Under the pieces are notes generated by a model. The model made no database searches and was not told where the DNA came from. It saw only the letters and a program-made list of their open reading frames with translations. A program made the position numbers and the translations under genes. This document shows positions 10,846-47,088 of a stretch of 64,000 nucleotides of DNA, in pieces. How positions within the stretch are numbered: position 1 is the first letter of the stretch; every line of letters begins with the position of its first letter. Origin of the DNA: a virus (taxonomy: Duplodnaviria > Heunggongvirae > Uroviricota > Caudoviricetes); the IMG/VR virus record IMGVR_UViG_2861084961_000001; one strand, given 5' to 3'.

Positions 10846-11619
10846 TTAATGATTGCCTAGATATGATTTTAGTTCTTCTTTAATGATTAGTGAGTATTCT
10901 AAAATATCACTTAGTAAAAATTTTGCTCTGTTAAAATAACCACCAAAAGAACCAAAAATTTCAGATGGTCTTTCTAAGAGCATTACAATATCATCTTCTT
11001 GCACTTTAGCAATGTAACTTCTAACAGCTCTTTCTCCAATAACTCTTTTCTTACCGTTTATTTCAGATTCATCTAAAACCTTATTTATAAATTTTTCTGT
11101 ATCATTGAATCGTCCACTATTGTGTACTATTGTATGTCTTAGTAGTTCAATTAGCTTGATGTTAAAGCGATAGTTTTTACCAATCTTGTTGTTTATTTCT
11201 ATCTCTTTGAAGCCAGGTATTTTATTTCTGAAAATTTTAATTATTTTTTTCGATGGGTTACTTTTTGCTTTTAATAATTTGTAATAAACTTCCCCTTTCC
11301 CAATGTCATCATCTTCAACCTTACCAAAATAACTTGAGGACCAGAAATCATTTCGAACACATACAGTATAGACATATATTGCCTCAATATAGTCTTCCAG
11401 TAACTCATAGGCTTCAGTAATAACCCACTGATATTGTTTATTTTTCAAAACATTACACAATCTTATCTTTTCTTCTAAATCAATGGCGCTGTTACCTATC
11501 TCTAATGTTGAACCTGTATATGGGTTTGAACATAAATGGCGAGCTAACGTTGTGCCACACTTAATCTTAATAGTTTCATTAATATTAATAATAGTATCTG
11601 GATTCTGTGCATACTCCAC
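10846..11619 (-). CDS. AT-rich hypothetical protein (257 aa), possible HEPN/Abi-like
   Basis: Clean minus-strand ORF with GGAG RBS; markedly AT-rich compared with flanks; contains R-x4-H motif (LLRHTIVHNSGR). Confidence 0.5.
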   Translation of the reverse strand: MEYAQNPDTIININETIKIKCGTTLARHLCSNPYTGSTLEIGNSAIDLEEKIRLCNVLKNKQYQWVITEAYELLEDYIEAIYVYTVCVRNDFWSSSYFGKVEDDDIGKGEVYYKLLKAKSNPSKKIIKIFRNKIPGFKEIEINNKIGKNYRFNIKLIELLRHTIVHNSGRFNDTEKFINKVLDESEINGKKRVIGERAVRSYIAKVQEDDIVMLLERPSEIFGSFGGYFNRAKFLLSDILEYSLIIKEELKSYLGNH

Positions 11620-11925
11620 TTCTTTTAGAAGACGTTTATATTTTTCTTTGTTGTATCATTTATCTGATTTAAATAGTCAAAAAGTAAAGATATTTCTTCT
11701 CTAAATTCGTTGTATTTTTTTCAATCAAAGAATCAGACAACTTACCAATCATTAAAACCTCTATAAAATGTACATTTCAAGGCAATCCTTACTGTAATCT
11801 ATTGTCATAATCACTTCAATTGTTTACCAGTCAATCAATAAGTTACTACATACTTATCAAAAAAATCTGTTTGTAGTATAGTCTGATATGTTCGAATCAA
11901 TATTTATAAAGGTATTTGTTAGGTT

Positions 11926-12171
11926 ATGACGATCACTATCTACGGACGAGATAACTGCTCATACTGCAAACGTGCAGTCGAGCTGGCGAAGCAACTAAAG
12001 GGACATGGCTACGGTGATTATGAGTACATCGACATCACCACTGCCGGTATCGACAAGGAAAAACTAAGTGAAATTGTTGGTAAACCGGTAGAGACTATCC
12101 CCCAGGTGCTGATCGATGGCCAGCCGATTGGCGGATACACAGAACTGGCTGCATACGTCAGCACCCTCTGA
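11926..12171 (+). CDS. Glutaredoxin (Grx1/NrdC-like)
   Basis: 81 aa; CSYC active site near N-terminus; PVETIPQVLIDGQPIGGYTEL closely resembles E. coli glutaredoxin 1. Confidence 0.8.
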   Translation: MTITIYGRDNCSYCKRAVELAKQLKGHGYGDYEYIDITTAGIDKEKLSEIVGKPVETIPQVLIDGQPIGGYTELAAYVSTL

Positions 12172-12381: not shown

Positions 12382-13483
12382 ATGAAAAATAGCTTTGACA
12401 GAGCACGCGCTGCGGAGAACACCTCAAAAGAGGCGATTGAGTATCTCGAAAGAGCATCTCAAATGCAGGCCGTTATGATCTCCCAGGTCAGCAATGACAT
12501 GAGATTCTCGGACGCATTCATGTTATTCACTCGCTTATCTCTGCTGATAACCAGACGTCGGCCAGAGATCGCTGTTCATTGTATTTTGATACATGTTTTG
12601 CCGCACATTGCTGATGTAAAAGTAAGTGACATTAATAGGTTCATGGTGAACCAACTGGTCAACCCCCTAATACTGGATGGCAAAATTGTTATGGGCCGCC
12701 GCGTTTTCTCTCTGATGAAGCAGTTCCTTAGCTGGTGCGCCTTCCAGGGGATGATAGACGTGTCACCGTTAAACGATATGTCACTAAACAAAGTTGCCGG
12801 TGGCGCAAAGCCCACACCTCGCGAGCGTAAGCTGACCGACGCAGAGGTATGGGTGTTCTGGAATATATGGGACTACTTCAATGTGTGCGCTGGTACAAAA
12901 TGGGCGGCCAGGCTGTGTCTTGTATCAGCAAGACGACCTGACGAAGTACTGCGGGCTAAAAAAGTGAGTTCAATCTTAAGCGTGGAGTTTGGAATCAAGG
13001 CAAGAGAAACAAGTCAGCACGTGAGCATTCGCTGCCTTTAAGCACATTAATGCGCACATGCATTGAAGAGTTGTTCGAATACGGTAAAAACAGCCAGTGG
13101 CTCGTGCCTTCGAATAAAAAATCGGGAAAGACCTTCCTATGTCTAAAGTGGCAATAGCCCAGGCATTACGTCGTATTCTGGAACGACCAGAACTGATGGA
13201 GCTTGAGCCATTTACACCCCGAGATTTGCGCCGTACTGCGCGTAGTTACTTCCCAGCATTAGGCATAAGCCAGGAGGTATCACGCAAAATCATGAACCAC
13301 AGTCTTGAGGGGATAGATCGGGTCTACGACCGGCACGATTATATGGACGAGATGCGAGACGCCTTAGAAAGTTTCTCGACGTACATCGCATCAATCGTAG
13401 AGCAACCGGATTTAGACGAAATTGACCACAAATTCAAGGGAGATCGTCTATCAACAGAGCTTATTCGTGTAAATTTTTCATAG
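12382..13483 (+). CDS. Tyrosine recombinase/integrase (P4-like), frame broken twice (around 13041 and 13139)
   Basis: C-terminal HSLPLSTLMRT..., FTPRDLRRTARSY..., IMNHSLEGIDRVYDRHDY resemble integrase catalytic region (R..H..R..Y); three frames all shifting -1. Confidence 0.6.
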
Positions 13484-22232: not shown

Positions 22233-23261
22233 ATGTCTAAGACATTACTTGATTTGCTTAACAAAACTCGTGAAGACATTGCCGCCAAACGTGGTAACAA
22301 CGTTGATCTGACTCGCTTAAAAGATGGCGTCAACTATATCCGTATCTTCCCGAATAAGGACGACCCAAACGGTAAGTTCTTCCAGACTTTCGGTATGCAC
22401 TACGTTAAGTATCAGAACGAGGACGGTAAAGAAGCAACCAACGCTTATATTTGTGAGCAACATACTCACGGTCGCGCTTGTCAGCTATGCGAAATGGTGA
22501 TGGAAGGTCGCGCTCGTCACAAGGGTAACAAAGCAATGGAAGAACGCATCGGTCAAATGCGTGCCACTCCTCGCTACCTGGTCAACGGCATTCTTTCAGC
22601 TCGTGAGGATTTCGCCGATGCAGAGAAATGCCAGTTAATCGAACTGCCTTCCACTGTATTCGATGATATCTGCAAAGCAATCACCGAAGACATCGCTGAT
22701 GATATCGGTAATCCACTGAGCAAAGAGGAAGGCTACGCATTCCTGATTAAACGTACTGGCTCTGGTCGCGATACCAAATATGACGTCTCGCCTAAGCGTA
22801 AAGTCTACAAAGGCGATATCGAAGATAAATTCTGGAATACCCAGCATGATCTGATCGCATACGCAAATCAGGCTGATGAAACTCGTCTTCTCTCGACAGT
22901 TCGCACTATGGGCCGTCTGATTGGCATCGCAGCACCAACTGCCTCTGCATCTGCACCAGCAATTTCCTCTACCGCGAAAACATCGGCCGCGGCACTGCCT
23001 GGATTTGGCTCTGTCACTGGTCATACGGAGGGTGCGACTGCTGTAGCAACCGCTCACACCCCAGCATCTGAACCAACCAGTCTGGTTGATGAAGAAATCC
23101 TCCGAGCCGTTGAAACTGAATTTAAACCAGAGGCAAGTTCCGCTGCCGTTGCCGTATCAGTCAAAGAGTCTGAAGCAGTCGCAGCGACATCTGTAGCAGC
23201 CGCATCTGCGACGGAAGATGAAGGTCTGGATGATCTACTGAGAGAGCTTGACTCTCTGTAA
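22233..23261 (+). CDS. gp32-like single-stranded DNA-binding protein
   Basis: IRIFPNKDDPNGKFF and Cys/His cluster CEQHTHGRACQLC resemble T4 gp32 zinc-binding core; acidic Ala/Ser-rich C-terminal tail. Confidence 0.7.
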   Translation: MSKTLLDLLNKTREDIAAKRGNNVDLTRLKDGVNYIRIFPNKDDPNGKFFQTFGMHYVKYQNEDGKEATNAYICEQHTHGRACQLCEMVMEGRARHKGNKAMEERIGQMRATPRYLVNGILSAREDFADAEKCQLIELPSTVFDDICKAITEDIADDIGNPLSKEEGYAFLIKRTGSGRDTKYDVSPKRKVYKGDIEDKFWNTQHDLIAYANQADETRLLSTVRTMGRLIGIAAPTASASAPAISSTAKTSAAALPGFGSVTGHTEGATAVATAHTPASEPTSLVDEEILRAVETEFKPEASSAAVAVSVKESEAVAATSVAAASATEDEGLDDLLRELDSL

Positions 23262-23277
23262 TCCCATTACGTGACCA

Positions 23278-23306
23278 GTAAGGCGTCTACGGACGCCTTA
23301 CTTTTT
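23278..23306 (+). terminator. Terminator hairpin gtaaggcgtctacggacgccttac + T-run
   Basis: Stem ggcgtc/gacgcc, tacg loop, ttttt. Confidence 0.7.
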
Positions 23307-23321
23307 GGAAGGAATGTACCG

Positions 23322-24266
23322 GTGAATTATCTCTTCGTAGATGGCAATAGCCTGGGTTATTACCACCAACAATCTGACAAATTGCACAACGGCGAAATGG
23401 AAGTACAGGCTGCTTTCGGCTTTGTTAAGAACGTCCGTCGTTATGCCTCCATCCTCCATGCCCGACCTATGATTCTTTGGGATGGATTTAGTGACAAGCG
23501 TCGCGACTTTTACCCGGACTACAAAGCAAATCGCGACGACGATCCTGATATGAAAAAGATGAAGGAAGGCTTTGCTATCCAGAAGCCATACATCCTCAAA
23601 ATGATGACCGCGCTTGGAGTTACCCAACTCATTGCAAAAGATGCAGAAGCGGATGATCTGGCCGGGCTGCTGGTATCCCGCATGGCACCGCAGCCAACCG
23701 TTGAACACATCTATCTGTTAACAGGCGATAGCGACTGGCTTCAGTTAGTTCGTGAAAACGTAAGCTGGGTAAGCCTGCGTGAAGACGCCAAAAACAAGCA
23801 GGTTAATTTTGAGCAATTTGCGAAGCTGACAGGATTCGCCACGCCTCGCGCATTTTTGGAAGCAAAAGCATTACAAGGCGATAACTCGGACAACATTAGC
23901 GGTGTTGGTGGCATTGGTGCTGGCGGTGCGAAAGAGCTGCTGCATGAATGGGGAAGTGTCGCAACGATGGTACGCGGCATCAACGACGGCTCAATCGTGG
24001 TTAATAAAGGGCGTCATAAGACCGCCTTCAACAAACTAGCGAAGAATGCCTTCAACGAGAAAACAGGCTGTCGAATGCTCGAAGCGTTCAAGAGAAACAT
24101 CACGCTAATGAACCTGATTGAGACGAAGTTTCCGCCTACCGAAATCGAAACAATCAAAGGCAATCGTGACGTGAAAGCATTCGAGCAACTGTGCTACGAG
24201 CTGAATTTCCGTTCGTTCCTTGAAGACCTTGAAGTGTTTGTTCTTCCATTCGAAAGGTATTGCTAA
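23322..24266 (+). CDS. 5'-3' exonuclease / flap endonuclease (phage RNase H-type)
   Basis: VNYLFVDGNSLGYY N-terminal FEN motif, YLLTGDSDWLQLV; start placed at GTG 23322 after terminator and GGAAGG RBS (longer ORF from 23271 would overlap the terminator). Confidence 0.75.
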   Translation: MNYLFVDGNSLGYYHQQSDKLHNGEMEVQAAFGFVKNVRRYASILHARPMILWDGFSDKRRDFYPDYKANRDDDPDMKKMKEGFAIQKPYILKMMTALGVTQLIAKDAEADDLAGLLVSRMAPQPTVEHIYLLTGDSDWLQLVRENVSWVSLREDAKNKQVNFEQFAKLTGFATPRAFLEAKALQGDNSDNISGVGGIGAGGAKELLHEWGSVATMVRGINDGSIVVNKGRHKTAFNKLAKNAFNEKTGCRMLEAFKRNITLMNLIETKFPPTEIETIKGNRDVKAFEQLCYELNFRSFLEDLEVFVLPFERYC

Positions 24267-24532
24267 TGCTTAAATCGATTATTAATGGCGCTACAACCAC
24301 CCCTGCCCAACTGGCAAAAGAGATTGTCTTTTATCACGGTGAGTACGCTGTCATCGCACTGCCGTCAATTCTAGGCACTGCCGGAATGAAAGCGACAGAT
24401 CGCGAGTTTGGATTAGTCAGCGAGCAGGTCGTAAAAATCCTCGCTCGTGTATCCAGACTCCTTAACCACGATGCGATTGTATTCGACGAATCCGCCGCTT
24501 TAAAACGAATCAACGAAACAAAAGGAGCCTGA
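24260..24532 (+). CDS. Hypothetical protein (90 aa)
   Basis: ORF start-overlapping upstream stop. Confidence 0.35.
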   Translation: MLMLKSIINGATTTPAQLAKEIVFYHGEYAVIALPSILGTAGMKATDREFGLVSEQVVKILARVSRLLNHDAIVFDESAALKRINETKGA

Positions 24533-24534
24533 TC

Positions 24535-25608
24535 ATGGCAAAAGGAAAATCCGCACTGGCACTTGCTCTGAAAAAGAAAATCGGTAGCAACGACGAAATT
24601 CAGAAAGTAACTCATTGGATTGACACAGGCTTTCCTCCGTTAAACAAAGCTATTTCCGGTCGTTACGATGGCGGTTTCCCATGTGGTCGTATCGTCGAAG
24701 TATTCGGGCCGCCAAGCGCGGGGAAAACTTTTTTGGCAACGGCAGCAATGATCTCCGCTCAGAAACAAGATGGCCTGGCGGTATTCCTCGATCATGAGAA
24801 CAGTTTTGACGTTGGCCTGGCTGTCGCCAATGGTCTGAACGCAGATGAGGATGACGGCCAGTGGGTATACAAGCAGCCTGATACCTTCGAAGACTCTGTA
24901 GAGTTGATCGGCACAATACTTAAATTGGTACGTGATGAAGAGCTTATCCCTGAATCAGCACCTATCTGTATCGTGGCTGACTCACTTGCGTCTATGGTTC
25001 CGAACTCCAAAGCCGAGAAGTTCGAAAAGATGGCTGAAGGCACTGCCAAAGACAAAGATCAGCTAAACATGAACGACAATACGGCGCTGGCTCGTGCAAC
25101 GAGTGCGAACTTCCCCACTCTGGCTTTGTGGGCACGCAAATACAACGCCTGCATCATCTTCTTGAATCAGGTTCGCACAAAAATCGGTGTAATGTTTGGC
25201 GACCCTACTACGTCACCAGGCGGCGATTCACCGAAGTTTTACGCTTCTGTGCGCATCCGTCTCGGTGCATCGGTGATGAAGGATGGTAAAGAGAAGATCG
25301 GTCAGGACGTAGGCGCAGAGTGCATCAAAAACAAAGTTGCACCACCGTATGGCAAATGCACCTGGAAATTCTACTTCGATCCTACTCGTGGCCTCGACGT
25401 TATCGAGTCGCTCGTCGAGTACATGCTGGAAGAAGGATACCTGCCAAAGAACGCCAGCGGTCGAGTAGAAATTGGTGACAAGAAATACACCAAATCACAG
25501 ATCGTCGAGATGTATCGGGAGAAGCCACTAGCTGAAATCATTGCAGCTTTACAGGCAATCGACGACCGGAGAGCAAAAGATACCCCCACCGAGTCAGTAG
25601 AAGGGTAA
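24535..25608 (+). CDS. RecA/UvsX-like recombinase
   Basis: GRIVEVFGPPSAGKTFLA Walker A in RecA core context; 357 aa. Confidence 0.85.
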   Translation: MAKGKSALALALKKKIGSNDEIQKVTHWIDTGFPPLNKAISGRYDGGFPCGRIVEVFGPPSAGKTFLATAAMISAQKQDGLAVFLDHENSFDVGLAVANGLNADEDDGQWVYKQPDTFEDSVELIGTILKLVRDEELIPESAPICIVADSLASMVPNSKAEKFEKMAEGTAKDKDQLNMNDNTALARATSANFPTLALWARKYNACIIFLNQVRTKIGVMFGDPTTSPGGDSPKFYASVRIRLGASVMKDGKEKIGQDVGAECIKNKVAPPYGKCTWKFYFDPTRGLDVIESLVEYMLEEGYLPKNASGRVEIGDKKYTKSQIVEMYREKPLAEIIAALQAIDDRRAKDTPTESVEG

Positions 25609-25613
25609 ACACA

Positions 25614-25636
25614 AGGCGTCCATAGGACGCCTTTTT
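25614..25636 (+). terminator. Terminator hairpin ggcgtccataggacgcc + T6
   Basis: Stem ggcgtcc/ggacgcc followed by tttttt. Confidence 0.75.
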
Positions 25637-25700
25637 TATCTCTTGAAAATATATAAGTACTTACTTATTATTTTCGCATAACAACCACATAGGAAAACAC

Positions 25701-25901
25701 ATGATCAAAATCTATCTATTGGCAGTAGCCACAGGCCTTTCTGTGGCTCTCATCTACGGATTACTGGTTCCGTCGCTGATTTCTGCAAAGAGTGATTTGG
25801 CCGTCATGCTTGGAGTTCTCGTTGGTTTTGGCACTCCTGTAATCGGTCTTATTGCTGGTCGTAAGTTTATTAACTCATTAATCAAAGCAAAGGGGAAATA
25901 A
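25701..25901 (+). CDS. Small two-helix membrane protein (66 aa), possible NfeD-like partner of SPFH protein
   Basis: Two hydrophobic segments; immediately upstream of SPFH gene; conserved GGAAAACACATG start context. Confidence 0.4.
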   Translation: MIKIYLLAVATGLSVALIYGLLVPSLISAKSDLAVMLGVLVGFGTPVIGLIAGRKFINSLIKAKGK

Positions 25902-25904
25902 GTA

Positions 25905-26734
25905 ATGAAGAAAGGTTTACTTGCAGTTGCTCTGGCGGCTATTTGCACAATGGGTCTTACTGGCTGTGATCGCGTGGAGCCTGGATACGTTGGCATCAAA
26001 GTAAACAAATTAGGTGAAGACAAAGGGATTGGTGAAGTGGTTGGCGTTGGTCGCCAATGGACAGGTCTTAACACCGAACTTTACGTATTCCCGACCTTCA
26101 AACAAATGAAGACCTACGACGAGCCGTTCACATTCCAGATGAGTGACGGTACTGCTATTGGTCATAAAATTGGCGTTGCGTATCTGGTTAATCGTGACAA
26201 GGTAACGACGGTGTTCCAGACCTATCGCAAAGGCGTAGACGATATCACCGAATCAGATCTGCGTCAGAAAATTGCCGACTCTCTAAACCGTTTGGCCAGC
26301 CGTATGACCACTGACTCATTTATCGACGGTGGTAAGGCGCAATTGCTGGACAACGCACTGAAAGATATTCAGAAAGAGATGTCTCCGGTTGGTATTGAGG
26401 TACTGAGCCTATCATGGGTTGGAAGCCTGATTACCCAAAAACCGTCATTGAATCTATCAACGCCAAAGTAACGGCTAACCAGCGTACTCTGCAACGTCAG
26501 CAGGAAGTCGAACAACGTAAAGCTGAGGCGAATATGCTGCGTGAACAGGCTAATGGTGAAGCTGATGCTATTCGTGCTCGTGCGCAAGCAGAAGCAGACG
26601 CTATTCGTCTGCGCGGTGAAGCTCTGCGTCAAAACCCGAACGTTATGGAACTGGAAGCCATCAATAAATGGAATGGCCAGTTACCGCAGTACATGACTCA
26701 AGGGGCTAACACTCCTTTCATTACAGTGAAATAA
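25905..26734 (+). CDS. SPFH/band-7 family lipoprotein; frame broken near 26400-26470
   Basis: Lipoprotein signal MKKGLLAVALAAICTMGLTGC; C-terminal coiled-coil with EAxA repeats; -1 frame relation between the two ORFs. Confidence 0.55.
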
Positions 26735-26753
26735 CTCTCTTTAAGAAGATCAG

Positions 26754-26778
26754 GCGTCCAGTTGGACGCCGTTTTATT
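26754..26778 (+). terminator. Terminator hairpin ggcgtccagttggacgcc + T-rich tail
   Basis: Same GGCGTCC stem family as terminators at 23278 and 25614. Confidence 0.65.
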
Positions 26779-26829
26779 CTCGTTATTATCACACACAAGA
26801 AAACAATTTGTTAAAAGGTTAAGTTAATT

Positions 26830-27654
26830 ATGCCCAACCACATTACAAACGAAATCCGAGTCATAGGTGGTACAAATAAACAACGCTTAGATTTCATACG
26901 TGCCATAACTAACAAAAAAGGTCTAATTGACTTTAATACCATTTGCAGACGTCCGAAAAGTATAGAAATGGAAGAAAACAATCATATCAGGCGCATGGCC
27001 TCTGCAATGGCGGGCGAAACAGTTTACGACTACATGTTCGGTGAATTAAAGACTCCAGAACAGGTCGAATTAGCTATGCGTGAATCTGGAATGACACGCA
27101 AGGAAATTCGCAAAATCAAAGAGCAGGCTCTTATGCGGCTTGAGAATTATCGTCGCTATGGCTATTACTCATGGTTTGACTGGTCGCGAGCTAATTGGGG
27201 AACAAAATGGAATGCCTACAACATCGAAATGCCCGTAAAACGTATCCCTACACGTATTAAGTACGGCCATAATTTCCGCCATACACACGTTCGAGCATAT
27301 GCAAAACGAATCTATAAAAAACGTCTTGCAAGACATGCCGCAACTGGTGGTGAGTTGGTGATTCGCTTTGAAACAGCCTGGTCTATGCCAAAACCAATTT
27401 ATCAAGCGATGGCTAGAAAGTTCCCGCACCTTGAATTTGTAATACGTTATGCAGACGAAGACTTCGGCAATAACTGCGGATTCATTTTACTTCGCAACGG
27501 CAAATGGGAATATGACTACATTGCACCGGCGAATAACGAACAATCGTCAGAAGAAAAAATCAAATGGCGCAAGTTCGCCTTTGAGTTATGTTGTCCTGGT
27601 ATTACTCCACAAGAATACGGTCTAAATGAAGAATACGAATACGCCGGATATTAA
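26830..27654 (+). CDS. Hypothetical protein (274 aa)
   Basis: ORF preceded by AGAAAACAATTTGTT motif; Trp-rich segment YSWFDWSRANWGTKWNAY. Confidence 0.45.
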   Translation: MPNHITNEIRVIGGTNKQRLDFIRAITNKKGLIDFNTICRRPKSIEMEENNHIRRMASAMAGETVYDYMFGELKTPEQVELAMRESGMTRKEIRKIKEQALMRLENYRRYGYYSWFDWSRANWGTKWNAYNIEMPVKRIPTRIKYGHNFRHTHVRAYAKRIYKKRLARHAATGGELVIRFETAWSMPKPIYQAMARKFPHLEFVIRYADEDFGNNCGFILLRNGKWEYDYIAPANNEQSSEEKIKWRKFAFELCCPGITPQEYGLNEEYEYAGY

Positions 27655-27779
27655 AAAATTGTCATTTAGCTTTACGCATGAAGCATAGAGGTTAATAAGA
27701 TGAAAAGAAAATTGAAGAACCAAAAACAACCCTTAATAAACATGGGGAAAAAATTCAAACACATCCAGCGTTCGGTCTT

Positions 27780-28439
27780 GTGAAAACAAGCCGTGTTAGC
27801 ACAACTGGCATTCGCCTATTTGATTCAGAACTGGAACATAGAGACTATATTGAAATAGGCGTTTACGAGGCAGAGCTGTCCTTAGACAATGAACGAACCC
27901 GGCCACAAAGAAGTAGCAATAGACGGCCTTTAGTTGAAATTAGACTTAGCCAGGCACAATGGGCTGCTATGGTTAGCAGTTTTGGTGTGGGCGAAGGTGT
28001 GCCATGCACTATTTCATATAAAACCATTGGCGACTCAATTAGAGTTCATGATATTGCCGAGCAAAAAAGTATTCGGCAAAAATTCAACGATCAAATAAAG
28101 GCAGCTACGAATAGTGAGATTGATCGACTTAATCAGCAAGTTTCAGAGCTAGGTGAGCTTGTGAAAAAAGGAAGAGCTGGAAAACGTGACCTTGAAGAAC
28201 TATATAGAAAACTTGCATCTGCTGTAGCTAACCTTCCTGAAAATCTGTGCTTTGCTACCGAATTAATGCAGGAGCAAATGGATGAAATTGTCTCATCTGG
28301 AAAGGCGGAGATTGAGGCGTATGTTGCAGGCACTGTTATGCGTAAAGGATTAGCAGCATTAGGTACAGAATCATGCATTAACGATGATCCTACAGTCTCT
28401 ATCACCAAAATGGAAAGCGGTAAAGAATTACTGCCATAA
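27780..28439 (+). CDS. Hypothetical coiled-coil protein (219 aa as given; may start upstream at ATG 27700 via a frame break)
   Basis: ORF; upstream in-frame continuation and ATG 27700 in -1 related frame near an A-run. Confidence 0.4.
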   Translation: MKTSRVSTTGIRLFDSELEHRDYIEIGVYEAELSLDNERTRPQRSSNRRPLVEIRLSQAQWAAMVSSFGVGEGVPCTISYKTIGDSIRVHDIAEQKSIRQKFNDQIKAATNSEIDRLNQQVSELGELVKKGRAGKRDLEELYRKLASAVANLPENLCFATELMQEQMDEIVSSGKAEIEAYVAGTVMRKGLAALGTESCINDDPTVSITKMESGKELLP

Positions 28440-28506
28440 ATGTATCTGAGGTACTGACAATGCTTTTAATTCAACCTGGGTTCGGTTTAAAGATAAAAAA
28501 GGACAT

Positions 28507-28848
28507 ATGTTTGGTGAGAGAGATTCCAAACGAAAAATTCTGTCTATTCGATTGCCATTTATCACCATTCATTGGTTAAACAGAGAGTCAACCGATTATT
28601 GGTATAAATGTGCAAGAGCAGCATTTAACGACCCTGACTGGTTTATAGAAAACCACCACGCGGTTCGTCAGGCAAAAAGAAAGGCAAATACGACATATAT
28701 GAAGGCATATCAGGATGCCTGGGAAGAACATCGTGGTCGATACCAAAAAAACATTGAAAAACTTGAATCTGAAAATATGGACCTAAGAAGAAAACTCGGT
28801 GAAGCACGGCGAGATATTGAAGCATATAAACGTCTTGTATCGGAGTGA
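28507..28848 (+). CDS. Hypothetical protein (113 aa)
   Basis: ORF in AT-rich block. Confidence 0.35.
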   Translation: MFGERDSKRKILSIRLPFITIHWLNRESTDYWYKCARAAFNDPDWFIENHHAVRQAKRKANTTYMKAYQDAWEEHRGRYQKNIEKLESENMDLRRKLGEARRDIEAYKRLVSE

Positions 28849-29010
28849 ATATGACTTTACATTGTTTTTCAAAGGGCATTGCTTTTCACTATACAGAAAC
28901 AGAAATAATAATGGGGCATTCTACATATGTAGTAAATGTGGCAGAACAAAATATCTTCCAGATGTCAAATTTGAAGGTCCTTAAATGTTTGCATTAAATG
29001 GGCAATACAG

Positions 29011-29427
29011 ATGATCGCAACAGACTTTTCTAAATTAAGTGATTTTGAAATTAACAGACGAGTATGTGAGGCTTTAGATATGGAGGAGTATTTCTTCATA
29101 CCTGATGACGAAGCAGATTTCGATTCGGAGATCCCCACTGATGAAAGAGGTCCTGTTTGGCAAACGTCAAAAAGGGATATTAATGGCTTCCGTGCTTCAA
29201 ACGGAAATTGCTTCAATCCTTGCAACAATCCGGCAGACGCAAAGCCTATTATCGTAGAGAATAGAATTGGCATCATTCCAGCGCCAGAAAATGGATTATG
29301 GAAGGCTGCGCATAGAAAGGTTGGTAACGATAATACTCCATACCATATGACTCAAAATGTAAATCCACTCCGCGCCGCTATGATTGTCTTTCTGATGATG
29401 AAAGAAAGTGAGAGTTGTACCGATTAA
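29011..29427 (+). CDS. Hypothetical protein (138 aa)
   Basis: ORF. Confidence 0.35.
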   Translation: MIATDFSKLSDFEINRRVCEALDMEEYFFIPDDEADFDSEIPTDERGPVWQTSKRDINGFRASNGNCFNPCNNPADAKPIIVENRIGIIPAPENGLWKAAHRKVGNDNTPYHMTQNVNPLRAAMIVFLMMKESESCTD

Positions 29428-29725
29428 TGAATATATACGATTTTTTAAAAAACCTAACACATGTGTCAGAAAAGGGTATAGACCGTCAGTCATCGATTGC
29501 TGGTCGCTATCAGCAAATAATCTCAACAATGTATTCAAAATGCATTGGGAGTTTCTTTGTGAAGCGCGCGGCGTTCTCGACATGACAGTCAGAGAAGCAA
29601 TTATCTGGATTCTTTGGTTTCCGGTAAGAACATTTATGACTCTGACGTACCCATTTACCTTCTGGATTTGGGGAACCGTCCTTTATTTCATATTAAAAGG
29701 AGAAGTAAAACATGGCAGCAATTAA
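29408..29725 (+). CDS. Hypothetical membrane protein (105 aa)
   Basis: Hydrophobic C-terminal half WILWFPVRTFMTLTYPFTFWIWGTVLYFIL. Confidence 0.35.
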   Translation: MRVVPINEYIRFFKKPNTCVRKGYRPSVIDCWSLSANNLNNVFKMHWEFLCEARGVLDMTVREAIIWILWFPVRTFMTLTYPFTFWIWGTVLYFILKGEVKHGSN

Positions 29726-30137
29726 GAAACTCTACGATGCCGCAAACGCGGCTCTGAATGTTATTGATGATGAAGTATCAAAAGGCTTTCCTGAACCTGA
29801 TTGGGCGCATCAGCTACGAAACGCTATCGCCGAAATGAAGCCACCAGCTCCGACCACCGACGAGACAGACTGGCAGCGATTTATCCGTATGTACGCTCAG
29901 GAAATAGGTCCAACGCCAACGGCAGAGCAAGCAATGCTGCTGAAATACTTCAAAGAGGCGGGAGAGGATTTACCAATTGATGACTCAGCATATTGGTTCC
30001 ACTGCGCATGGCGTAAATATGACGTGATATTCACACAAGGCATGGGGAGCAAAGATATGGTTGTGTGGCATCTACTCCATATAGACACAGCCGTTGACAG
30101 AGTTATTGAACAGTTTTTCCCTAAACAAGAAGATTGA
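29712..30137 (+). CDS. Hypothetical protein (141 aa)
   Basis: ORF overlapping neighbours in operon fashion. Confidence 0.4.
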   Translation: MAAIKKLYDAANAALNVIDDEVSKGFPEPDWAHQLRNAIAEMKPPAPTTDETDWQRFIRMYAQEIGPTPTAEQAMLLKYFKEAGEDLPIDDSAYWFHCAWRKYDVIFTQGMGSKDMVVWHLLHIDTAVDRVIEQFFPKQED

Positions 30138-30192
30138 TCGCCTATTCATAACTAACAAAATAAGTAAACACTAACCACAAAAGGAAAAACAC

Positions 30193-30468
30193 ATGAGAGT
30201 TTTAGTTCGAATCGTTACCAGCACTGTCTATGACGTGTTTCCGCTTTTTATGGTCAAAGCCGATGGCCTTAACGACGAAGAAACTGACGCACTGATCCAG
30301 CGTATTCTCGTTGAATATACAGGTCATGACGCTGATTCAGTGATGGTTGATGATGATGGTGTTTGTTGGCATAACGGCAACTGTTGGTACGTAGAAGAGA
30401 CTCAACAAATCAGTGATGAAGATGCCGCACATCTTGAGCGTATTCTAAGCATCAGCACTTTTGAGTGA
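30193..30468 (+). CDS. Hypothetical acidic protein (91 aa)
   Basis: Conserved AAAGGAAAAACACATG start context. Confidence 0.45.
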   Translation: MRVLVRIVTSTVYDVFPLFMVKADGLNDEETDALIQRILVEYTGHDADSVMVDDDGVCWHNGNCWYVEETQQISDEDAAHLERILSISTFE

Positions 30469-30682
30469 GTTTACAGTAAAATTTATATAAGTTAGTATCT
30501 ACCTATCATGAAGATTTTATTGAATACTTGTTGCTCATCGTGTCAATAGCTTTTGTCATCGACTGCATTTTCACTGGTGTCATTCGTAAAGTCTTTTCCC
30601 CGGTGAACGACGTAGTCATAAACGCTTTGGCTATCGTGCTCGTATTTAATTCAGCATTTGATGTAATCAAAGAGGTGGCAGC

Positions 30683-31018
30683 ATGAAGGCCATCCCATTC
30701 GCGCTGTTGTTCCTTTCTTCGATCGTTGTGGCCGACACCACTGTTTATCAGTGTGAAATGTCTGTAGCCGACGTTAAGAATGGCGCTCTTACCGACGTCA
30801 TAAAAGCACCATATGGAGCGATGGTCGTAGACAGCGGCGACCAGTTCTATGTTGTGCGTGACGATCGAGTATTGTCATCCCCATATCTCACAAACCGTAA
30901 TGGCAAATTAACCGGCGTCGGAGAAGACCACTTCGTATACAACAAATACAAGGGCTTCTATGGCGTTCACGCTTCTCAGCAAAGCTACCTTTTCGATGAC
31001 TGCAAGGAGGTTGGATAA
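30683..31018 (+). CDS. Secreted/periplasmic hypothetical protein (111 aa)
   Basis: N-terminal signal peptide MKAIPFALLFLSSIVVADTT. Confidence 0.45.
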   Translation: MKAIPFALLFLSSIVVADTTVYQCEMSVADVKNGALTDVIKAPYGAMVVDSGDQFYVVRDDRVLSSPYLTNRNGKLTGVGEDHFVYNKYKGFYGVHASQQSYLFDDCKEVG

Positions 31019-31230
31019 TGGCATTAACACTAGCAGGTCTGGAAATCGAGAAAACAAGCGGATACTGGCGTGCTAAGGGTTTCAAGCAGCCTGGCGTTCT
31101 TGAGCGTCTGGAGCGTGAAGATGGGTATATCGTCCACCAGCGGCGTGAATGGCGCATGTACGATCCAGAAACAGGAAAACTGACTACAAAAGCCGGAACA
31201 CTTTGGGGTCTGTTAAAGAAAATACACTAA
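31018..31230 (+). CDS. Hypothetical protein (70 aa)
   Basis: ORF start-overlapping upstream stop; followed by hairpin actgcggctcgttccgcagt. Confidence 0.35.
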   Translation: MALTLAGLEIEKTSGYWRAKGFKQPGVLERLEREDGYIVHQRREWRMYDPETGKLTTKAGTLWGLLKKIH

Positions 31231-31278
31231 ATGCAAACTGACTGCGGCTCGTTCCGCAGTCATATTTCATAGTCGTCA

Positions 31279-31809
31279 CCGCTGACAGCATACACAATCA
31301 ACTGCCGCTGATAGCATATCGAGAGTCTATCTCACCGCTCACAGCATACTTTACTCGATTTTTACCGCTGACAGCATACTTAAGGCATTGCATGAATAAT
31401 GTGTACCGGTATGGGTATAACCAGAACAAAATTACCGCTGGCAGCATACGAAGGTCTGACATATGCCATTAATTACCGCTGATAGCATATCCAAACAAAA
31501 TTCCTCAATAAAACACCGCTGACAGCATACGTTCTATCAGGGAGCAGCAGGCAATAAATGCCTTTCACTACAAGTAATCAGCGCAATGGCAATAGAATGT
31601 TAGTGAGCGCAAACCTATATGGAATGCACTCTTCGAGGTTAGTAACCACTGGGGAGGTATAAAAGAGCATTGAGTGGTGATAGATGATTTACCGCTCACG
31701 GCATACGTTCATCTCACTATACCGCTGGTAGCATATCTTTAACCGTTCACAGCATACTTTTCAGAAAAATAGCCGCTGATAGCATACATTTCACCGCTGA
31801 CAGCATATC
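31279..31809. repeat. Iteron array: 12 copies of ~15-19 bp repeat CCGCTGACAGCATAC (variants) in two groups (7 + 5), downstream of repA
   Basis: Counted by eye at approx 31279, 31305, 31335, 31366, 31435, 31474, 31516, 31691, 31722, 31742, 31773, 31793. Confidence 0.85.
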
Positions 31810-32901
31810 AAAGCAGTTTGAGACTATTGGAAAGGATCTCAATCATCTTGATATTTTCAGGCGTCAAATTCTGTGAAAGTTCGGTTATCTTATTGATAAT
31901 GTTCTGTTTGGCATCAATTTCCCCGGCTTTCTCATCTGGTTTTTTGGGTTCGATGTCTTCAGGTTTTGGCGGTGCGACTTTGAGTTTTGGATTGCGGCTG
32001 TGAATCTGGATATAGATCGACCGCCCTCGCTTAATCTCGCTGTATTCGAGATAACCCAAATCTTGGAGAGCTTTTAAGCCGTTACGTATAGTCTGATTCT
32101 GCGAGCTGACATTCCTGCTACTCAAATTGAGTCGCGCACGCAATCGAGCAAGCGATACCGGCGCAGGCTTGGTTGGAAGACTTTCGATGAAGGTGTACAG
32201 AGCCTGTGCTGTTTCTTTGCGTGGTAGCTTATTGATAACCTTTAACTGTAAAAGAACCTTATGGTCAAAGCGATATAGTTCGGCCAGCTTCGGTTCTGCA
32301 TAGAACACCACCGTATCTTTCTGCTCGTTGTAGTCCACGCTATTGATGAGGTGCACCATCAGAAGCGAGATCTTGTTAGAGCCGTCGACATTCTTTTCTT
32401 CATACGTTCTCTGGAAAGACAGAGTGGTACGCATAATCTTCAAAAGACTGTTTGTAAGCCGGTCGCGGAGTGTTTTGCGGATCTGTGACGATGGATAGCC
32501 ACAAAACTTCGCAAATTTCGTGATGCTTAACTCGACACGACCGTTAGGTTCGCCGTATTCTGCCAGCGAACGCACAACGCCCACCCACGTTTTGAAATCA
32601 TGATCCATGTCGAGACGAGGACCGGTTATCTTGATATCGGAATAGCCTTCAGAACGGGCTACTTCGAGCTGAACAAGCTCCTTTGAAGCATCGATCTCAT
32701 TTGGCTTGTTACGCTTGCTGTATTTTGTCCCTTGAGCGTTGGCACGAACAACCCCAGCCGCATCAACGCAATTGGTTGGACTGTATTGTTGCTATTAGGG
32801 ACAAGTTCCCCTGTGTACAATTCAAGGGAACCTTCTTCAAAGTTGTCGAGATTATCTTCTACTTCTTTGTTATTTTTACCTTTTTTATTTTTTGTGGACA
32901 T
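31808..32901 (-). CDS. repA: Replication initiator RepA (iteron-binding), probable frame break near 32650-32760
   Basis: Minus-strand ORF 31808..32608 flanked on both sides by iterons; N-terminal Lys-rich segment MSTKNKKGKNNK starting at 32901 is in -1-related frame; larger ORF start at 33021 lies inside iterons and is rejected. Confidence 0.7.
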
Positions 32902-32922
32902 GTGGACACCTTTGTCATTCAA

Positions 32923-33023
32923 CCGCTGACAGCATACTTGATTTGCCGCTGGCAGCATACCAAAAACAGTTGGCAGCATACGGCGAACCGTTGACAGACT
33001 ATCAATTACCGCTGGCAGCATAC
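32923..33023. repeat. Upstream iteron group (4-5 copies) overlapping repA promoter
   Basis: aaccgctgacagcatac, tgccgctggcagcatac, agttggcagcatac, ccgttgacagactat, ccgctggcagcatac. Confidence 0.8.
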
Positions 33024-33059
33024 ATGAACATGGCTTCAGACCAGTCGTGGCGCGGCTTA

Positions 33060-33140
33060 CAGCGATCGGGGATCTTATTTGATCTATACAAGGATCTATC
33101 TATGGATCTCTTTATTAGGATCTATCCTGTGGATATGTAA
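33060..33140. promoter_or_regulatory. Origin-like AT-rich segment with six GATC sites in ~60 bp and a DnaA-box-like TGTGGATAT
   Basis: GATC at ~33064, 33071, 33081, 33093, 33105, 33119; tgtggatat at 33129-33137 (8/9 match to reverse DnaA box). Confidence 0.6.
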
Positions 33141-33221
33141 TAATTAAAACAGGCATTTACTACCTTCGGCGCACCTGGTGGGTTATCGTTGCCTCGGCTA
33201 ACAATCACAGAAAAATGACAT

Positions 33222-33866
33222 ATGGATCTAAAACGCACGCGCTGGGTTCGTCGTCTTGAAGACGGCTCCTACACTATCGAATCAAATTCCAACCTGAATA
33301 AGCAGAAGCTGCTTTGTGACATCTGCGGTATAGCGGCGAAGTGCCCGATCTACGAAACCAGAATTAAACTTGATAAGGCTGGTGTGAATTTTCATTTAAA
33401 CAGTTGCATCAGGTACGTTCCATTGCTCGCATTTCGTAAACCGATCATCGGATTGGATGCCCCCTACTTCAACACACTCCGTTCAGGTGTGACGTGGCGA
33501 GATCGTTTATCACCAGACAAGCTGATTTGCCTTGTATCCGCAGACACAGGGAAAATCATCCGTTTTGGGAAAGTAGACAAGGTTTACTCAGGTCCAGTAG
33601 ACGAAATGTTGCGGAAACACAGCCGGTTTAATCATCTCTGTATGGGGGGTGAGAAAATCGAAAAGGTGGAAGAAGTGATCCGTAAATCCTACGGACACTT
33701 CCTGACCAAAGATAGCCTGCTCACCGCAATCTACATCAGACATGTAAAACGTGAGTTCGACCTCGAATACCACAGTGAAGAAGAGCTTAACCTTGTTGAC
33801 CCACGTCCAAAAGCTGGCGTCATAAGCATAAACGCAGCGCGTAAAAAGCCCACTGACGCGCTGTAA
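33222..33866 (+). CDS. Hypothetical protein (214 aa)
   Basis: ORF. Confidence 0.45.
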   Translation: MDLKRTRWVRRLEDGSYTIESNSNLNKQKLLCDICGIAAKCPIYETRIKLDKAGVNFHLNSCIRYVPLLAFRKPIIGLDAPYFNTLRSGVTWRDRLSPDKLICLVSADTGKIIRFGKVDKVYSGPVDEMLRKHSRFNHLCMGGEKIEKVEEVIRKSYGHFLTKDSLLTAIYIRHVKREFDLEYHSEEELNLVDPRPKAGVISINAARKKPTDAL

Positions 33867-46531: not shown

Positions 46532-47088
46532 ATGACAACGATTGTTGCAGGCATCGATATCGAGTCTACGGGACTGGATTTCCTTGCTGGTCATAAAATT
46601 ATTGAAATCGCAATTACCCGCTATGAACTGGAGACACAGAGACATATTGATAGTCTGGAGATGCGTTTTAACCCTCGCAGAAACATAGATCCGAAAGCTC
46701 AAGCCGTTCATGGCATTTCATTGGAACAGCTCGCAGCTGAACCTTTGTTGTCAAATCATGCCAGCGAAATTGGCGCTTATATGGGGGCATGTAGTGCGTG
46801 GATTGCTCATAACGGCGAAGCGTTTGATATACCATTTATTCGACACGAGTTTTCAGGGTATGGAGTAAGACTGCCAGACGTTCCTGTTATAGATACTATG
46901 TTATCGGGATTGTGGCCACAGAAGACGGTAAACGTCCCCGCCTTGAAGAGTTGGCCTTCTCTCTTGGCTTTATATACGATCATGCCAAAGCACATAGTGC
47001 CTTATATGACACAAACTTAATGATGCAATGCTTCTTTAAGGCACGTAATAAGTACGGATTTTTTAAATTACCCTCTGAAATTGTGTAA
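46532..47088 (+). CDS. DnaQ-like 3'-5' exonuclease (DEDDh), frame break near 46940-46960
   Basis: Exo I GIDIESTGLD, Exo II HNGEAFDIPFI, and Exo III HSALYDTNLM in the -1 frame downstream of a cccc run. Confidence 0.65.

What the first reader, a model, noticed from the sequence alone, without database searches (positions are those of the whole stretch)
26830..30470. AT-rich block of eight uncharacterised genes immediately upstream of the replication origin
Genes at 26830-30468 have no recognisable motifs and lower GC than the core replication genes. They include a Trp-rich protein (YSWFDWSRANWGTKWNAY), a coiled-coil protein and small membrane proteins. The composition and lack of homology suggest an accessory region, where anti-defence or host-takeover genes are typically found.
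Basis: inference. Interest (0 to 1): 0.45.

Follow-up and report, generated by a model that had tools for sequence, protein, structure and literature searches.

The report
Variable gene cassette in SSU5-like phage-plasmid
The flagged block is real, but it is an already-sequenced slot of swappable genes of unknown function, followed by two conserved backbone genes, in a common SSU5-type phage-plasmid of Escherichia, and nothing found here shows that it counters host defences.

Summary
The window is an SSU5-like phage-plasmid. The stretch 22501-32901 is 99.5% identical to E. albertii plasmid pEA26_1. The block exists, all on the + strand, with GC 0.410 against 0.456 for the window.

"No recognisable motifs" is wrong. 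g1 is a YubB/Api92 (DUF1281_C) protein, g4 is NinX/DUF2591 and g5 is DUF7238. Every gene has a PHROG family. g3 is 82% nt-identical to a lambdoid nin-region gene. None of these families has a known function.

The block is composite:
- **26824-29692** (g1, g2, g3, NinX, a small membrane ORF) is a dispensable cassette. It is whole or partial in 24 of about 180 close Escherichia/Shigella relatives. The sampled remainder, including the virion-producing phage Cyrano, have an empty slot.
- **g5 and g6** are backbone genes, conserved as far as SSU5 itself.

The origin iterons start at 31274, after three more genes and a terminator.

All genes tested are under purifying selection. PADLOC gave no hit above noise, NCBIfam gave no hit near its cut-offs, and there is no Rad homologue. 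The g1 and g2 families are spread across phages and plasmids, and g1-like folds also occur in giant viruses.

Apparent frameshifts in g2, g3, the SPFH gene and repA are 1-bp homopolymer deletions, probably sequencing errors.

Verdict: ordinary, already known sequence. "Accessory" is partly right. "Anti-defence" is untested.

The parts
26753..26770 (+). Terminator-like hairpin after the SPFH gene (GGCGTCCAGTTGGACGCC plus a T-run). It marks the left edge of the transcription unit that holds the block.
   Evidence: The same hairpin is conserved in Cyrano, SSU5 and AnCo3.
26771..26829 (+). Conserved leader (…TTATTATC…AAGAAAACAATTTGTTAAAAGG…). It precedes the first gene of the slot whatever that gene is.
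   Evidence: comparison of the window with L003 (Cyrano), L005 (AnCo3) and L006 (SSU5). The left deletion junction in Cyrano is at 26823/26824.
26830..27654 (+). g1, 274 aa, of the YubB/Api92-like (DUF1281_C) family. It has a ferredoxin-like fold. Invariant motifs are the N-terminal M-P-N-H, WGTKWNAY, TAW and ADED-G-N-G.
27700..28439 (+). g2, 246 aa in pEA26_1. In the window a 1-bp deletion at 27707 puts the ATG out of frame, so the listed ORF starts at GTG 27780. Predicted N-terminal beta-rich domain (HPAFG, LFDS, H, LSQAQWA, GxGEGVPCT) followed by long helices.
   Evidence: phrog_6452 1.7e-87. Frameshift. 3,648 cluster representatives at E<=0.001 with no Pfam or PDB relative. AF2 pLDDT only 59.5.
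28460..28848 (+). g3, 129 aa in pEA26_1. The window has a 1-bp deletion at 28494, so the listed ORF starts at 28507. It is a homologue of a lambdoid nin-region gene, with a coiled-coil C-terminus.
   Evidence: phrog_1511 2.6e-76. 81-83% nt identity to about 40 lambdoid and Stx phages. The homologue lies between ninE and ninF in HK630. dN/dS 0.13.
28915..29685 (+). NinX module. It is an indel relative to p09EL50-type plasmids. It contains NinX and most of the small membrane ORF.
   Evidence: L002 lacks 28915-29685, and the flanking matches overlap by 30 bases in L002 (6389-6418).
29011..29427 (+). g4, 138 aa, NinX / DUF2591 family.
   Evidence: Pfam PF10765 4.2e-17 and phrog_444 5e-38. Annotated NinX or DUF2591 in relatives.
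29415..29725 (+). g4b, about 103 aa, a small ORF with two hydrophobic helices. It is not annotated in RefSeq. The window has a 1-bp deletion at 29440.
   Evidence: phrog_2638 4.2e-15. Intact 103-aa ORF in L001 at 6919-7230. Deletion.
29712..30137 (+). g5, 141 aa, DUF7238. It is a backbone gene of SSU5-like phage-plasmids and the first gene after the slot.
   Evidence: Pfam 6.2e-38 and phrog_1451. Conserved in Cyrano, SSU5, AnCo3 and other genera.
30193..30468 (+). g6, 91 aa, phrog_2209. Backbone gene.
   Evidence: Conserved in all relatives examined. dN/dS 0.07 against SSU5.
30528..31230 (+). The rest of the same co-directional unit, outside the finding. It holds a small membrane gene (phrog_2535, N-terminus lost to the deletion at 30514), g7 (111 aa, hydrophobic N-terminus read as a signal peptide by eye, not tested, phrog_2077) and g8 (70 aa, phrog_804, called Cra-like in Cyrano and SSU5).
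31239..31262 (+). Bidirectional terminator-like hairpin that closes the unit.
31274..31808 (.). Twelve iterons (core ACCGCTGACAGCATAC) beside the 3' end of repA. Four more lie at 32918-33023.
   Evidence: repA (RepB family) lies at 31808-33021 on the - strand, split in the window by a 1-bp deletion at 32728.

Best explanation
The block is the front part of one co-directional transcription unit of an SSU5-type phage-plasmid. The unit lies between the terminator after the SPFH gene and the terminator just before the repA iterons.

Its first 2.9 kb (26824-29692) is a cargo slot. Independent small genes taken from the common pool of phage and plasmid early genes are gained, lost and swapped there, behind a conserved leader and in front of the backbone genes g5-g8. 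The cargo genes are g1 (YubB/Api92-like), g2, g3 (lambdoid nin-type), NinX and a small membrane protein.

**Shown**
- The cargo is dispensable for plasmid maintenance and virion production.
- The genes compared are real and under purifying selection.

**Inferred**
- The cargo genes act singly, not as a system, on host or competitor processes during entry or early lytic growth.
- g1 is the best candidate for an enzyme.
- Whether any of them counters a defence system is not known.
For: **Identity of the element**
- The stretch 22501-32901 is 99.5% identical to pEA26_1.
- It matches SSU5-like plasmids and phages.
- Synteny is exo, recA-like, SPFH, slot, g5-g8, repA.

**States of the slot**
- Window and pEA26_1: g1-g2-g3-NinX-g4b.
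- p09EL50: g1-g2-g3.
- AnCo3: g1-g2-NinX.
- SSU5: NinX only.
- Cyrano: empty.

**Frequency**
- 24 records cover at least 80% of the query, out of about 180 at 95% identity or more.
- The sampled remainder have abutting flanks.
- g1 is found in 24 Escherichia/Shigella plasmids.

**Dispensability**
- Cyrano lacks the cargo, yet it is kept at about 5.5 copies per cell and makes virions (PMC9928086).

**Structure of the unit**
- A conserved leader precedes whichever gene comes first.
- Terminator-like hairpins lie at 26753-26770 and 31239-31262.
- Low GC (0.40) is confined to the cargo.

**Real genes**
- pN is far below pS for g1, g2, g3, NinX, g5 and g6. dN/dS is 0.07-0.13 where dS could be computed (g1, g3, g6); synonymous sites are saturated in the other comparisons.

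**Shared pool of mobile-element genes**
- The g3 homologue lies between ninE and ninF in HK630.
- g2 homologues occur in 125 phage records, including jumbo and Vequintavirinae phages. They also occur in 276 plasmids typed as conjugative; the one examined is the IncHI1 plasmid pHCM1.
- g1 relatives occur in prophage early regions, next to an orphan methylase or between recombination genes and xis-int.
- One g1 relative is fused to LPD28, a polyvalent-protein domain of invading elements (PMC5512222).

**Independence of g1 and g2**
- There was no co-occurrence in seven unrelated contexts.

**g1 as a possible enzyme**
- 19 invariant columns, mostly polar, including the very N-terminus, on a confident model.
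Against: - No promoter was identified. Sigma-70-like sites are not enriched (10 found against 12.9 expected), so the "single unit" is inferred from gene orientation and hairpins only.
- No expression data exist for the cargo. The only transcriptome is from Cyrano, which lacks it.
- g1 and g2 differ from their Salmonella copies about as much as the backbone genes do: 66% and 63% aa identity against 72% and 70% for g5 and g6. The cargo may therefore be old and repeatedly lost, not recently acquired.
- g1-like folds in giant viruses of eukaryotes argue against a role tied to bacterial immunity.
- The g2 model is poor (pLDDT 59.5), so its architecture is uncertain.
Confidence: 0.75

Rival explanations
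1. **Anti-defence island.** One or more cargo genes (g1, g2, g3, NinX) inhibit host immune systems when the element enters a new cell.
For: - The genes are variable and dispensable, have low GC, and sit among early-type genes.
- The g1 and g2 families are shared by phages and plasmids, as many anti-defence genes are.
- A g1 relative is fused to LPD28. LPD domains are proposed facilitators of early invasion.
- A g1 relative sits next to an orphan N6/N4 methylase in a prophage.
- In Cyrano, genes 58-62 (the conserved part of the unit) are not among the genes listed as expressed in lysogeny. This fits lytic or early expression.
Against: - No similarity to any characterised anti-defence protein was found.
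- Rad is the only anti-defence system reported in SSU5-group elements (10.1101/2025.09.12.675607). The T5 TOPRIM protein T5.076, taken here as its homologue, has no match in the window.
- g1-like folds occur in Mimiviridae, Pithovirus and other eukaryotic giant viruses.
- Most close relatives do without the cargo in the same host species.
- No anti-defence HMM library was available.
Confidence: 0.25
2. **Accessory DNA-metabolism genes.** This is a nin-region analogue. The cargo extends the upstream exonuclease and RecA-like recombination module and modulates replication, recombination or nucleotide handling.
For: - The cargo lies directly downstream of the 5'-3' exonuclease, the RecA-like recombinase and the SPFH gene, and before the replicon.
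- g3 and NinX are lambdoid nin-region families.
- The Dickeya prophage g1 homologue follows a YqaJ exonuclease gene.
- The g1 family is present in giant viruses. With its invariant acidic ADED motif plus His and Lys, this fits a general nucleic-acid or nucleotide enzyme.
Against: - The characterised nin genes with DNA functions (ninB, ninG) are not the ones found here.
Confidence: 0.2
3. **Lysogenic-conversion or defence cargo.** The genes are expressed from the plasmid state and protect the host against other phages or plasmids.
For: - Phage-plasmids of this group carry defence systems in variable regions (10.1101/2025.09.12.675607).
- The slot follows an SPFH-type membrane gene and includes a small membrane ORF.
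Against: - PADLOC gave no hit above noise for any of the ten proteins. The only hit is g3 against LmuB, E 0.009 at 12.5 bits over a coiled coil.
- g2 homologues sit in virulent phages that do not lysogenise.
- The conserved genes of the unit are not listed among lysogeny-expressed genes of Cyrano.
Confidence: 0.1
4. **Decaying pseudogenes.** The frameshifts in the window mean that the block is being lost.
For: In the window, g2, g3 and g4b have disrupted N-termini.
Against: - All nine indels against pEA26_1 over 10.4 kb are 1-bp deletions in A, T or C runs. There are no insertions.
- They also hit the SPFH gene and the replication initiator repA. This is the pattern of long-read homopolymer error.
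- The same genes are intact in 24 relatives and are under purifying selection.
Confidence: 0.05

Closest known systems
E. albertii plasmid pEA26_1 (NZ_CP117610), E. coli O104:H4 plasmid p09EL50 (NC_018651), and the SSU5 / pHCM2 group of phage-plasmids
   Same: - The 4.5 kb around the block is 99.8% identical to pEA26_1, with the same gene order.
- The same unit lies between SPFH and repA in SSU5, Cyrano and AnCo3.
   Different: - Only the content of the slot differs: full, without NinX, NinX only, or empty.
- The replicon also differs. Cyrano has no nt match for 31247-33035.
- The window carries homopolymer deletions that the relatives lack.
nin region of lambdoid phages (lambda, P22, HK630, Stx phages)
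   Same: - It is a run of small, individually exchangeable, non-essential genes next to the replication genes.
- The g3 homologue lies between ninE and ninF in HK630.
- g4 is a NinX family member.
   Different: - The setting is a plasmid-replicating siphovirus, not an integrated lambdoid phage.
- None of the characterised nin genes (ninB/orf, ninG/rap, ninH, ninI) is present.
- g1 and g2 are not nin genes.
Api92 of Yersinia pseudotuberculosis (PDB 2ijr) and the YubB/DUF1281 family
   Same: - g1 matches Pfam DUF1281_C.
   Different: - Sequence identity is only 14%.
- The family profile A1 did not retrieve 2ijr by sequence.
- The N-terminal DUF1281 Pfam model was not among the hits at E<=1.
- g1 has a helical insertion at about residues 140-171 that is shared only with some close relatives.
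- Api92 itself has no known function.
Anti-defence islands of phages (for example the T5/SP15 island holding Rad and tRNA-Tyr) and leading regions of conjugative plasmids
   Same: These are clusters of small, variable, early-expressed genes of mobile elements. The g1 and g2 families are found in both phages and plasmids.
   Different: - No member of the block matches a characterised anti-defence protein.
- The T5 TOPRIM protein taken as the Rad homologue has no match in the window.
- No functional evidence exists.

Membership tests
SSU5-type phage-plasmid (element as a whole) | Nucleotide similarity and synteny with SSU5 and pHCM2-like plasmids around the replicon | tested here: met
   - 72.6% nt identity to SSU5 over g5-g8.
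- The order exo, recA-like, SPFH, slot, g5-g8, repA is shared.
- 333 matching plasmids, of which 329 are non-mobilizable and those listed are mostly about 100-125 kb.
YubB/Api92-like, Pfam DUF1281_C (g1) | Score above the Pfam gathering threshold for PF18406 | tested here: met
   58.4 bits against a cut-off of 22.8, E 6.7e-16, residues 171-242.
YubB/Api92-like, Pfam DUF1281_C (g1) | Fold like the solved Api92 structure | tested here: met
YubB/Api92-like (g1) | N-terminal DUF1281 domain (PF06924) of the classical enterobacterial members | tested here: not met
   The Pfam scan at E<=1 returned only DUF1281_C. The N-terminal half of g1 is a distinct conserved region (MPNH…WGTKWNAY).
NinX / DUF2591 (g4) | Score above the Pfam gathering threshold for PF10765 | tested here: met
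   62.9 bits against a cut-off of 22.6, full-length match 2-114 of 114.
DUF7238 (g5) | Score above the Pfam gathering threshold for PF23885 | tested here: met
   129.8 bits against a cut-off of 27.
Known anti-phage defence systems (PADLOC) | Match of any block protein to a defence-system profile | tested here: not met
   The only hit is g3 against LmuB, E 0.009 at 12.5 bits, over the coiled coil.
Rad (retron anti-defence), the anti-defence system reported in SSU5-group elements | Homology to the small TOPRIM protein of T5-like phages | tested here: not met
   tblastn of T5.076 (172 aa, TOPRIM) against the whole window gave a best E of 1.0. Block proteins against T5 20-60 kb gave nothing below E 0.05. 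Caveat: T5.076 was chosen as the Rad homologue from the paper's description, not from a deposited Rad sequence.
Characterised anti-defence proteins in general | Match to an anti-defence profile library (AntiDefenseFinder, dbAPIS) | not testable with these tools
   No such library is offered. All PHROG hits are in the category 'unknown function'.
Lambdoid nin-region genes (g3) | Homologue located inside a nin region | tested here: met
   82% nt identity over 389 nt. In HK630 the homologue (gp55, 133 aa) lies between ninE and ninF.

The most novel reading that the evidence does not exclude
g1 and/or g2 are founding examples of uncharacterised effector families that many kinds of mobile element use.
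- g1 would be a YubB/Api92-fold enzyme whose invariant N-terminal Pro-Asn-His and ADED motif form an active site. It is present in phages, plasmids and even giant viruses.
- g2 belongs to a family of at least 3,600 clusters at 50% identity with no Pfam model and no solved structure. The family is present in jumbo phages, in Vequintavirinae and on large conjugative plasmids such as the IncHI1 plasmid pHCM1.

Either could define a new way for an incoming element to alter host nucleic-acid or nucleotide metabolism, or to evade immunity.
Probability: 0.15. Interest if true: 0.6.

Novelty: already known. Interest (0 to 1): 0.22.

Why it matters
As a sequence feature this matters little. The block is 99.8% identical to deposited plasmids, and its genes already sit in DUF and PHROG families.

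Three results are useful:
- It marks the SPFH-to-g5 interval as a recombination slot in a clinically common phage-plasmid group found in E. coli, Shigella sonnei and Salmonella.
- It separates the dispensable cargo from the backbone genes.
- It points to two large families, YubB/Api92-like and the g2 family, whose breadth and strong conservation make them reasonable targets for functional work.

It also warns that this assembly carries homopolymer errors that break real genes, including repA.

Tried and rejected
**Sequence and profile searches for function**
- NCBIfam gave only sub-threshold coiled-coil noise.
- PADLOC gave nothing above noise.
- Single-sequence PDB searches for g1, g3, g4 and g5 found nothing meaningful.
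- Profile PDB searches for g1 (A1) and g2 (A2, A3) found nothing meaningful. For g2 the only hits were coiled coils.

**Structure**
- The afdb50 fold library was unavailable.

**Tautomerase idea for g1**
- The invariant Pro after the initiator Met suggested a tautomerase-like catalytic Pro-1.

**Rad**
- Rad is reported in 16-22% of SSU5-group elements, and I considered that it might lie in the block.
- It is described as a 189-aa TOPRIM protein.
- The T5 TOPRIM protein taken as its homologue has no match in the window.

**Other searches that found nothing**
- Domain fusions in ten longer g2 relatives and Pfam over 57 g2 family members.
- Linkage of g1 and g2 outside SSU5-like elements.
- Rfam on 25500-33500.
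- Literature searches for DUF1281/Api92, DUF2591 and the PHROG numbers gave no functional study. One search on 'NinX' was swamped by nickel-nitride chemistry papers.

**Promoters**
- The sigma-70 promoter scan was not above chance.

Full report
**What the window is.** The stretch 26500-31000 matches 333 plasmids in PLSDB. Of these, 329 are typed non-mobilizable, and those listed are mostly about 100-125 kb. They come from Escherichia, Shigella, Salmonella, Enterobacter, Citrobacter and Klebsiella. The stretch also matches the phages SSU5, Cyrano and PhiR41_1. The best match is E. albertii plasmid pEA26_1, at 99.8% over this stretch and 99.5% over 22501-32901. The element is therefore an SSU5-type phage-plasmid, a group already described in the literature (PMC7969092; 10.1101/2025.09.12.675607).

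**Sequence quality.** Against pEA26_1, the 10.4 kb around the block has 38 substitutions and nine indels.
- All nine indels are 1-bp deletions in the window inside runs of A, T or C.
- They fall in the SPFH gene (26422), g2 (27707), g3 (28494), the small membrane ORF (29440), a small membrane gene (30514) and repA (32728), and at three intergenic sites.
- The changes are one-directional and confined to homopolymers, and one hits an essential replication gene. This is the signature of long-read sequencing error.
- I therefore used the intact pEA26_1 reading frames to define the proteins.

**The observation.** Genes lie head to tail on the + strand from 26830 to 30468. GC is 0.410 for the finding, 0.456 for the window and 0.477 for the upstream exo-recA-SPFH genes. 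Only 3.9% of windows of the same length are as low. The dip is confined to 26824-29692 (0.40). g5 is at 0.467 and g6 at 0.438.

The genes are:

| Gene | Coordinates | Size | Family hits |
|---|---|---|---|
| g1 | 26830-27654 | 274 aa | DUF1281_C, phrog_12644 |
| g2 | about 27700-28439 | 246 aa | phrog_6452 |
| g3 | about 28460-28848 | 129 aa | phrog_1511 |
| g4 (NinX) | 29011-29427 | 138 aa | PF10765, phrog_444 |
| g4b | about 29415-29725 | about 103 aa, two hydrophobic helices | phrog_2638 |
| g5 | 29712-30137 | 141 aa | DUF7238, phrog_1451 |
| g6 | 30193-30468 | 91 aa | phrog_2209 |

- A 46-aa CxxC ORF at about 28845-28997 has only weak support.
- The statement that the genes have no recognisable motifs is therefore wrong. 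It is true that none of the families has a known function. NCBIfam gave no hit anywhere near its cut-offs, and PADLOC gave nothing above noise.

**The origin.** It is not immediately adjacent to the block.
- A small membrane gene (phrog_2535), g7 (111 aa; its hydrophobic N-terminus looks like a signal peptide, by inspection only) and g8 (70 aa, called Cra-like in Cyrano and SSU5) follow at 30528-31230.
- A hairpin follows at 31239-31262.
- Twelve iterons follow at 31274-31808, with four more at 32918-33023 around repA on the - strand.

**Anatomy of the variation.** Pairwise comparison and the annotated relatives show that the interval between the SPFH gene and g5 is a slot with at least five states:
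- g1-g2-g3-NinX-g4b in the window and pEA26_1
- g1-g2-g3 in p09EL50 and the Shigella sonnei plasmids, which lack 28915-29685
- g1-g2-NinX in Salmonella AnCo3
- NinX alone in SSU5
- nothing in phage Cyrano, which lacks 26824-29692

Among about 180 Escherichia/Shigella plasmids at 95% identity or more:
- 11 have the full cassette and 13 lack only the NinX module.
- Almost all of the sampled remainder have the two flanks abutting, with a span of 1616 bp.
- g1 is detected by tblastn in 24 Escherichia/Shigella plasmids, 5 Salmonella plasmids and a few Moellerella and Pectobacterium plasmids.

In every state the first gene sits behind the same leader. This leader follows a conserved terminator-like hairpin at 26753-26770. 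The right junction lies at the ribosome-binding site and start of g5.

g5-g8 are kept at about 72% nt identity in SSU5 and in the relatives from other genera. g5 homologues come almost only from contigs of about 100-110 kb.

So the finding joins a dispensable cassette to two backbone genes.

**Dispensability.** Cyrano has the empty slot. It is maintained at about 5.5 copies per cell and produces virions (PMC9928086). In the same paper, the table of genes expressed in lysogeny does not list CYRAN_58-62, the conserved part of this unit. This hints at expression outside the plasmid state, but it is an inference from absence in a table.

**Real genes.** Comparison of the pEA26_1 copies with the AnCo3, SSU5 or HK630 copies gives pN far below pS for g1, g2, g3, NinX, g5 and g6. 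dN/dS is 0.07-0.13 where dS could be computed (g1, g3, g6); synonymous sites are saturated in the other comparisons. g1 and g2 are 66% and 63% identical to their Salmonella copies, against 72% and 70% for g5 and g6. The cargo may therefore be old in this lineage and lost many times, not newly acquired.

**g1.**
- The family is large, with 847 hits at E<=0.001.
- An alignment of 40 diverse members has 19 invariant columns. These include the first three residues (M-P-N, with H4 nearly invariant), T-K-W-N-Y within the WGTKWNAY motif, T-A-W, and A-D-E-D…N…G.
- The AlphaFold model is confident (pLDDT 92.3).
- In the viral structure library, the neighbours are YubB ferredoxin-like proteins of phages. 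They also include proteins of Moumouvirus, Aureococcus virus, Bodo saltans virus, a choanoflagellate mimivirid and a pithovirus.
- Distant homologues lie in three kinds of context:
  - in prophage early regions next to an orphan N6/N4 methylase and an HNH gene;
  - between a YqaJ exonuclease gene and xis-int;
  - in an element with a resolvase and a PAPS-reductase-like gene.
- One homologue is fused to LPD28. This domain is defined from polyvalent proteins of phages and conjugative elements and is proposed to help early invasion (PMC5512222).
- The conservation pattern looks enzymatic. An N-terminal catalytic proline, as in tautomerases, is conceivable but has no structural support here.

**g2.**
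- The word-indexed search found only 35 relatives, all in SSU5-like elements.
- An exhaustive profile search found 3,648 cluster representatives at E<=0.001, and 3,123 at 1e-10. Nearly all of the 150 listed are 200-340 aa long and match over positions about 15-227.
- tblastn finds the family in 125 phage records. These include Caulobacter, Microbacterium and Brevundimonas phages, and the jumbo phages phiR1-37 and BcepSauron. Vequintavirinae are also represented.
- It also finds the family in 352 plasmids. Of these, 276 are typed as conjugative, and the one examined is the IncHI1 plasmid pHCM1.
- In the phages it sits within arrays of small unnamed genes.
- Residues H22, S43, Q87 and T104 are invariant across 57 diverse members.
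- There is no Pfam model, no PDB relative and no informative fusion.
- The one structure prediction was poor.
- g1 and g2 do not travel together outside SSU5-like elements in the seven contexts examined.

**g3 and NinX.** g3 is 81-83% nt-identical to a gene of about 40 lambdoid and Stx phages. In HK630 that gene lies between ninE and ninF. From general knowledge of P22, not tested here, this is the position that ninX occupies in that phage. The cassette thus resembles a nin region, meaning a string of small exchangeable genes beside the replication functions. It lacks the nin genes whose functions are known.

**Test of a specific anti-defence lead.** A survey of clinical isolates reports the anti-retron gene Rad in 16% of Escherichia and 22% of Shigella SSU5-group elements, mostly S. 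sonnei. The g1-g3 cassette is also found in the S. sonnei plasmids, so I checked for a link. Rad is described as a 189-aa TOPRIM protein. The matching T5 gene (T5.076) has no similarity anywhere in the window, and the block proteins have none in T5 20-60 kb. The block is not Rad.

**Conclusion.** The best-supported account is a cargo slot at the head of a conserved early-type unit. It is filled with independent genes from the shared pool of phage and plasmid genes, and it is dispensable for the two life styles of the element.
- The "anti-defence" label is one of several open possibilities. The others are accessory DNA or nucleotide metabolism, and host-protective cargo. It has only contextual support.
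- The sequence and its gene families are already in public databases, so the finding is ordinary.
- What remains of interest is the g1 and g2 families, which are large, strongly conserved and unstudied.

Noticed in passing
window 26422, 27707, 28494, 28864, 29440, 30514, 31358, 31496, 32728: There are nine 1-bp deletions, all inside homopolymer runs, relative to the 99.5%-identical pEA26_1. They split the SPFH gene and repA and truncate g2, g3 and two small membrane genes. This is probably long-read assembly error, so ORF-based reading of this window is unreliable.
   Followed up: yes
window 31247-33035 versus L003 (Cyrano): The repA gene and its iterons have no nucleotide match in phage Cyrano, although both flanks match at 93-97%. 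Cyrano's RepA is 1056 nt against 1215 nt here. The replicon seems to have been exchanged between otherwise similar elements.
   Followed up: partly
window 10112-10669: A cluster of four tRNA genes (Asn-GTT, Tyr-GTA, Thr-TGT, Ser-TGA) is carried by the phage-plasmid.
   Followed up: partly
window 10846-11619 (- strand): This is the lowest-GC spot of the window (0.30 over 11001-12000). It holds a 257-aa ORF that matches phrog_35492 (E 5e-173, unknown function) with no PADLOC hit. It is followed by an ORF at 11926-12171 that looks glutaredoxin-like by eye, and another at 12382-13041 that looks like an integrase fragment; neither was scanned. This may be another cargo site.
   Followed up: partly
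window 47001-48000: A second GC dip (0.385) was not examined.
   Followed up: no
g2 family (window 27700-28439 and relatives P0156-P0302): The family has at least 3,648 clusters at 50% identity and is conserved end to end at about 240 aa. It is found in phages of Proteobacteria and Actinobacteria and on large conjugative plasmids such as the IncHI1 plasmid pHCM1. It has no Pfam model and no solved structure.
   Followed up: partly
g1 family (window 26830-27654): YubB/Api92-like folds similar to g1 occur in giant viruses of eukaryotes (Moumouvirus, Aureococcus anophagefferens virus, Bodo saltans virus, a pithovirus) as well as in phages.
   Followed up: partly
window 26771-26829 and the same place in L003, L005, L006: A leader of about 50 nt (TTATTATC … AAGAAAACAA(A/T)TT(G/A)TT) after the SPFH terminator is conserved across Escherichia and Salmonella elements, whichever gene follows it. 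Its role (promoter, operator or recombination site) is unknown.
   Followed up: partly
rows H180 and H181: A few close E. coli relatives match only from 29693 rightwards (29% coverage). Their left flank, the SPFH side, differs. This is another variant of the locus and was not examined.
   Followed up: no
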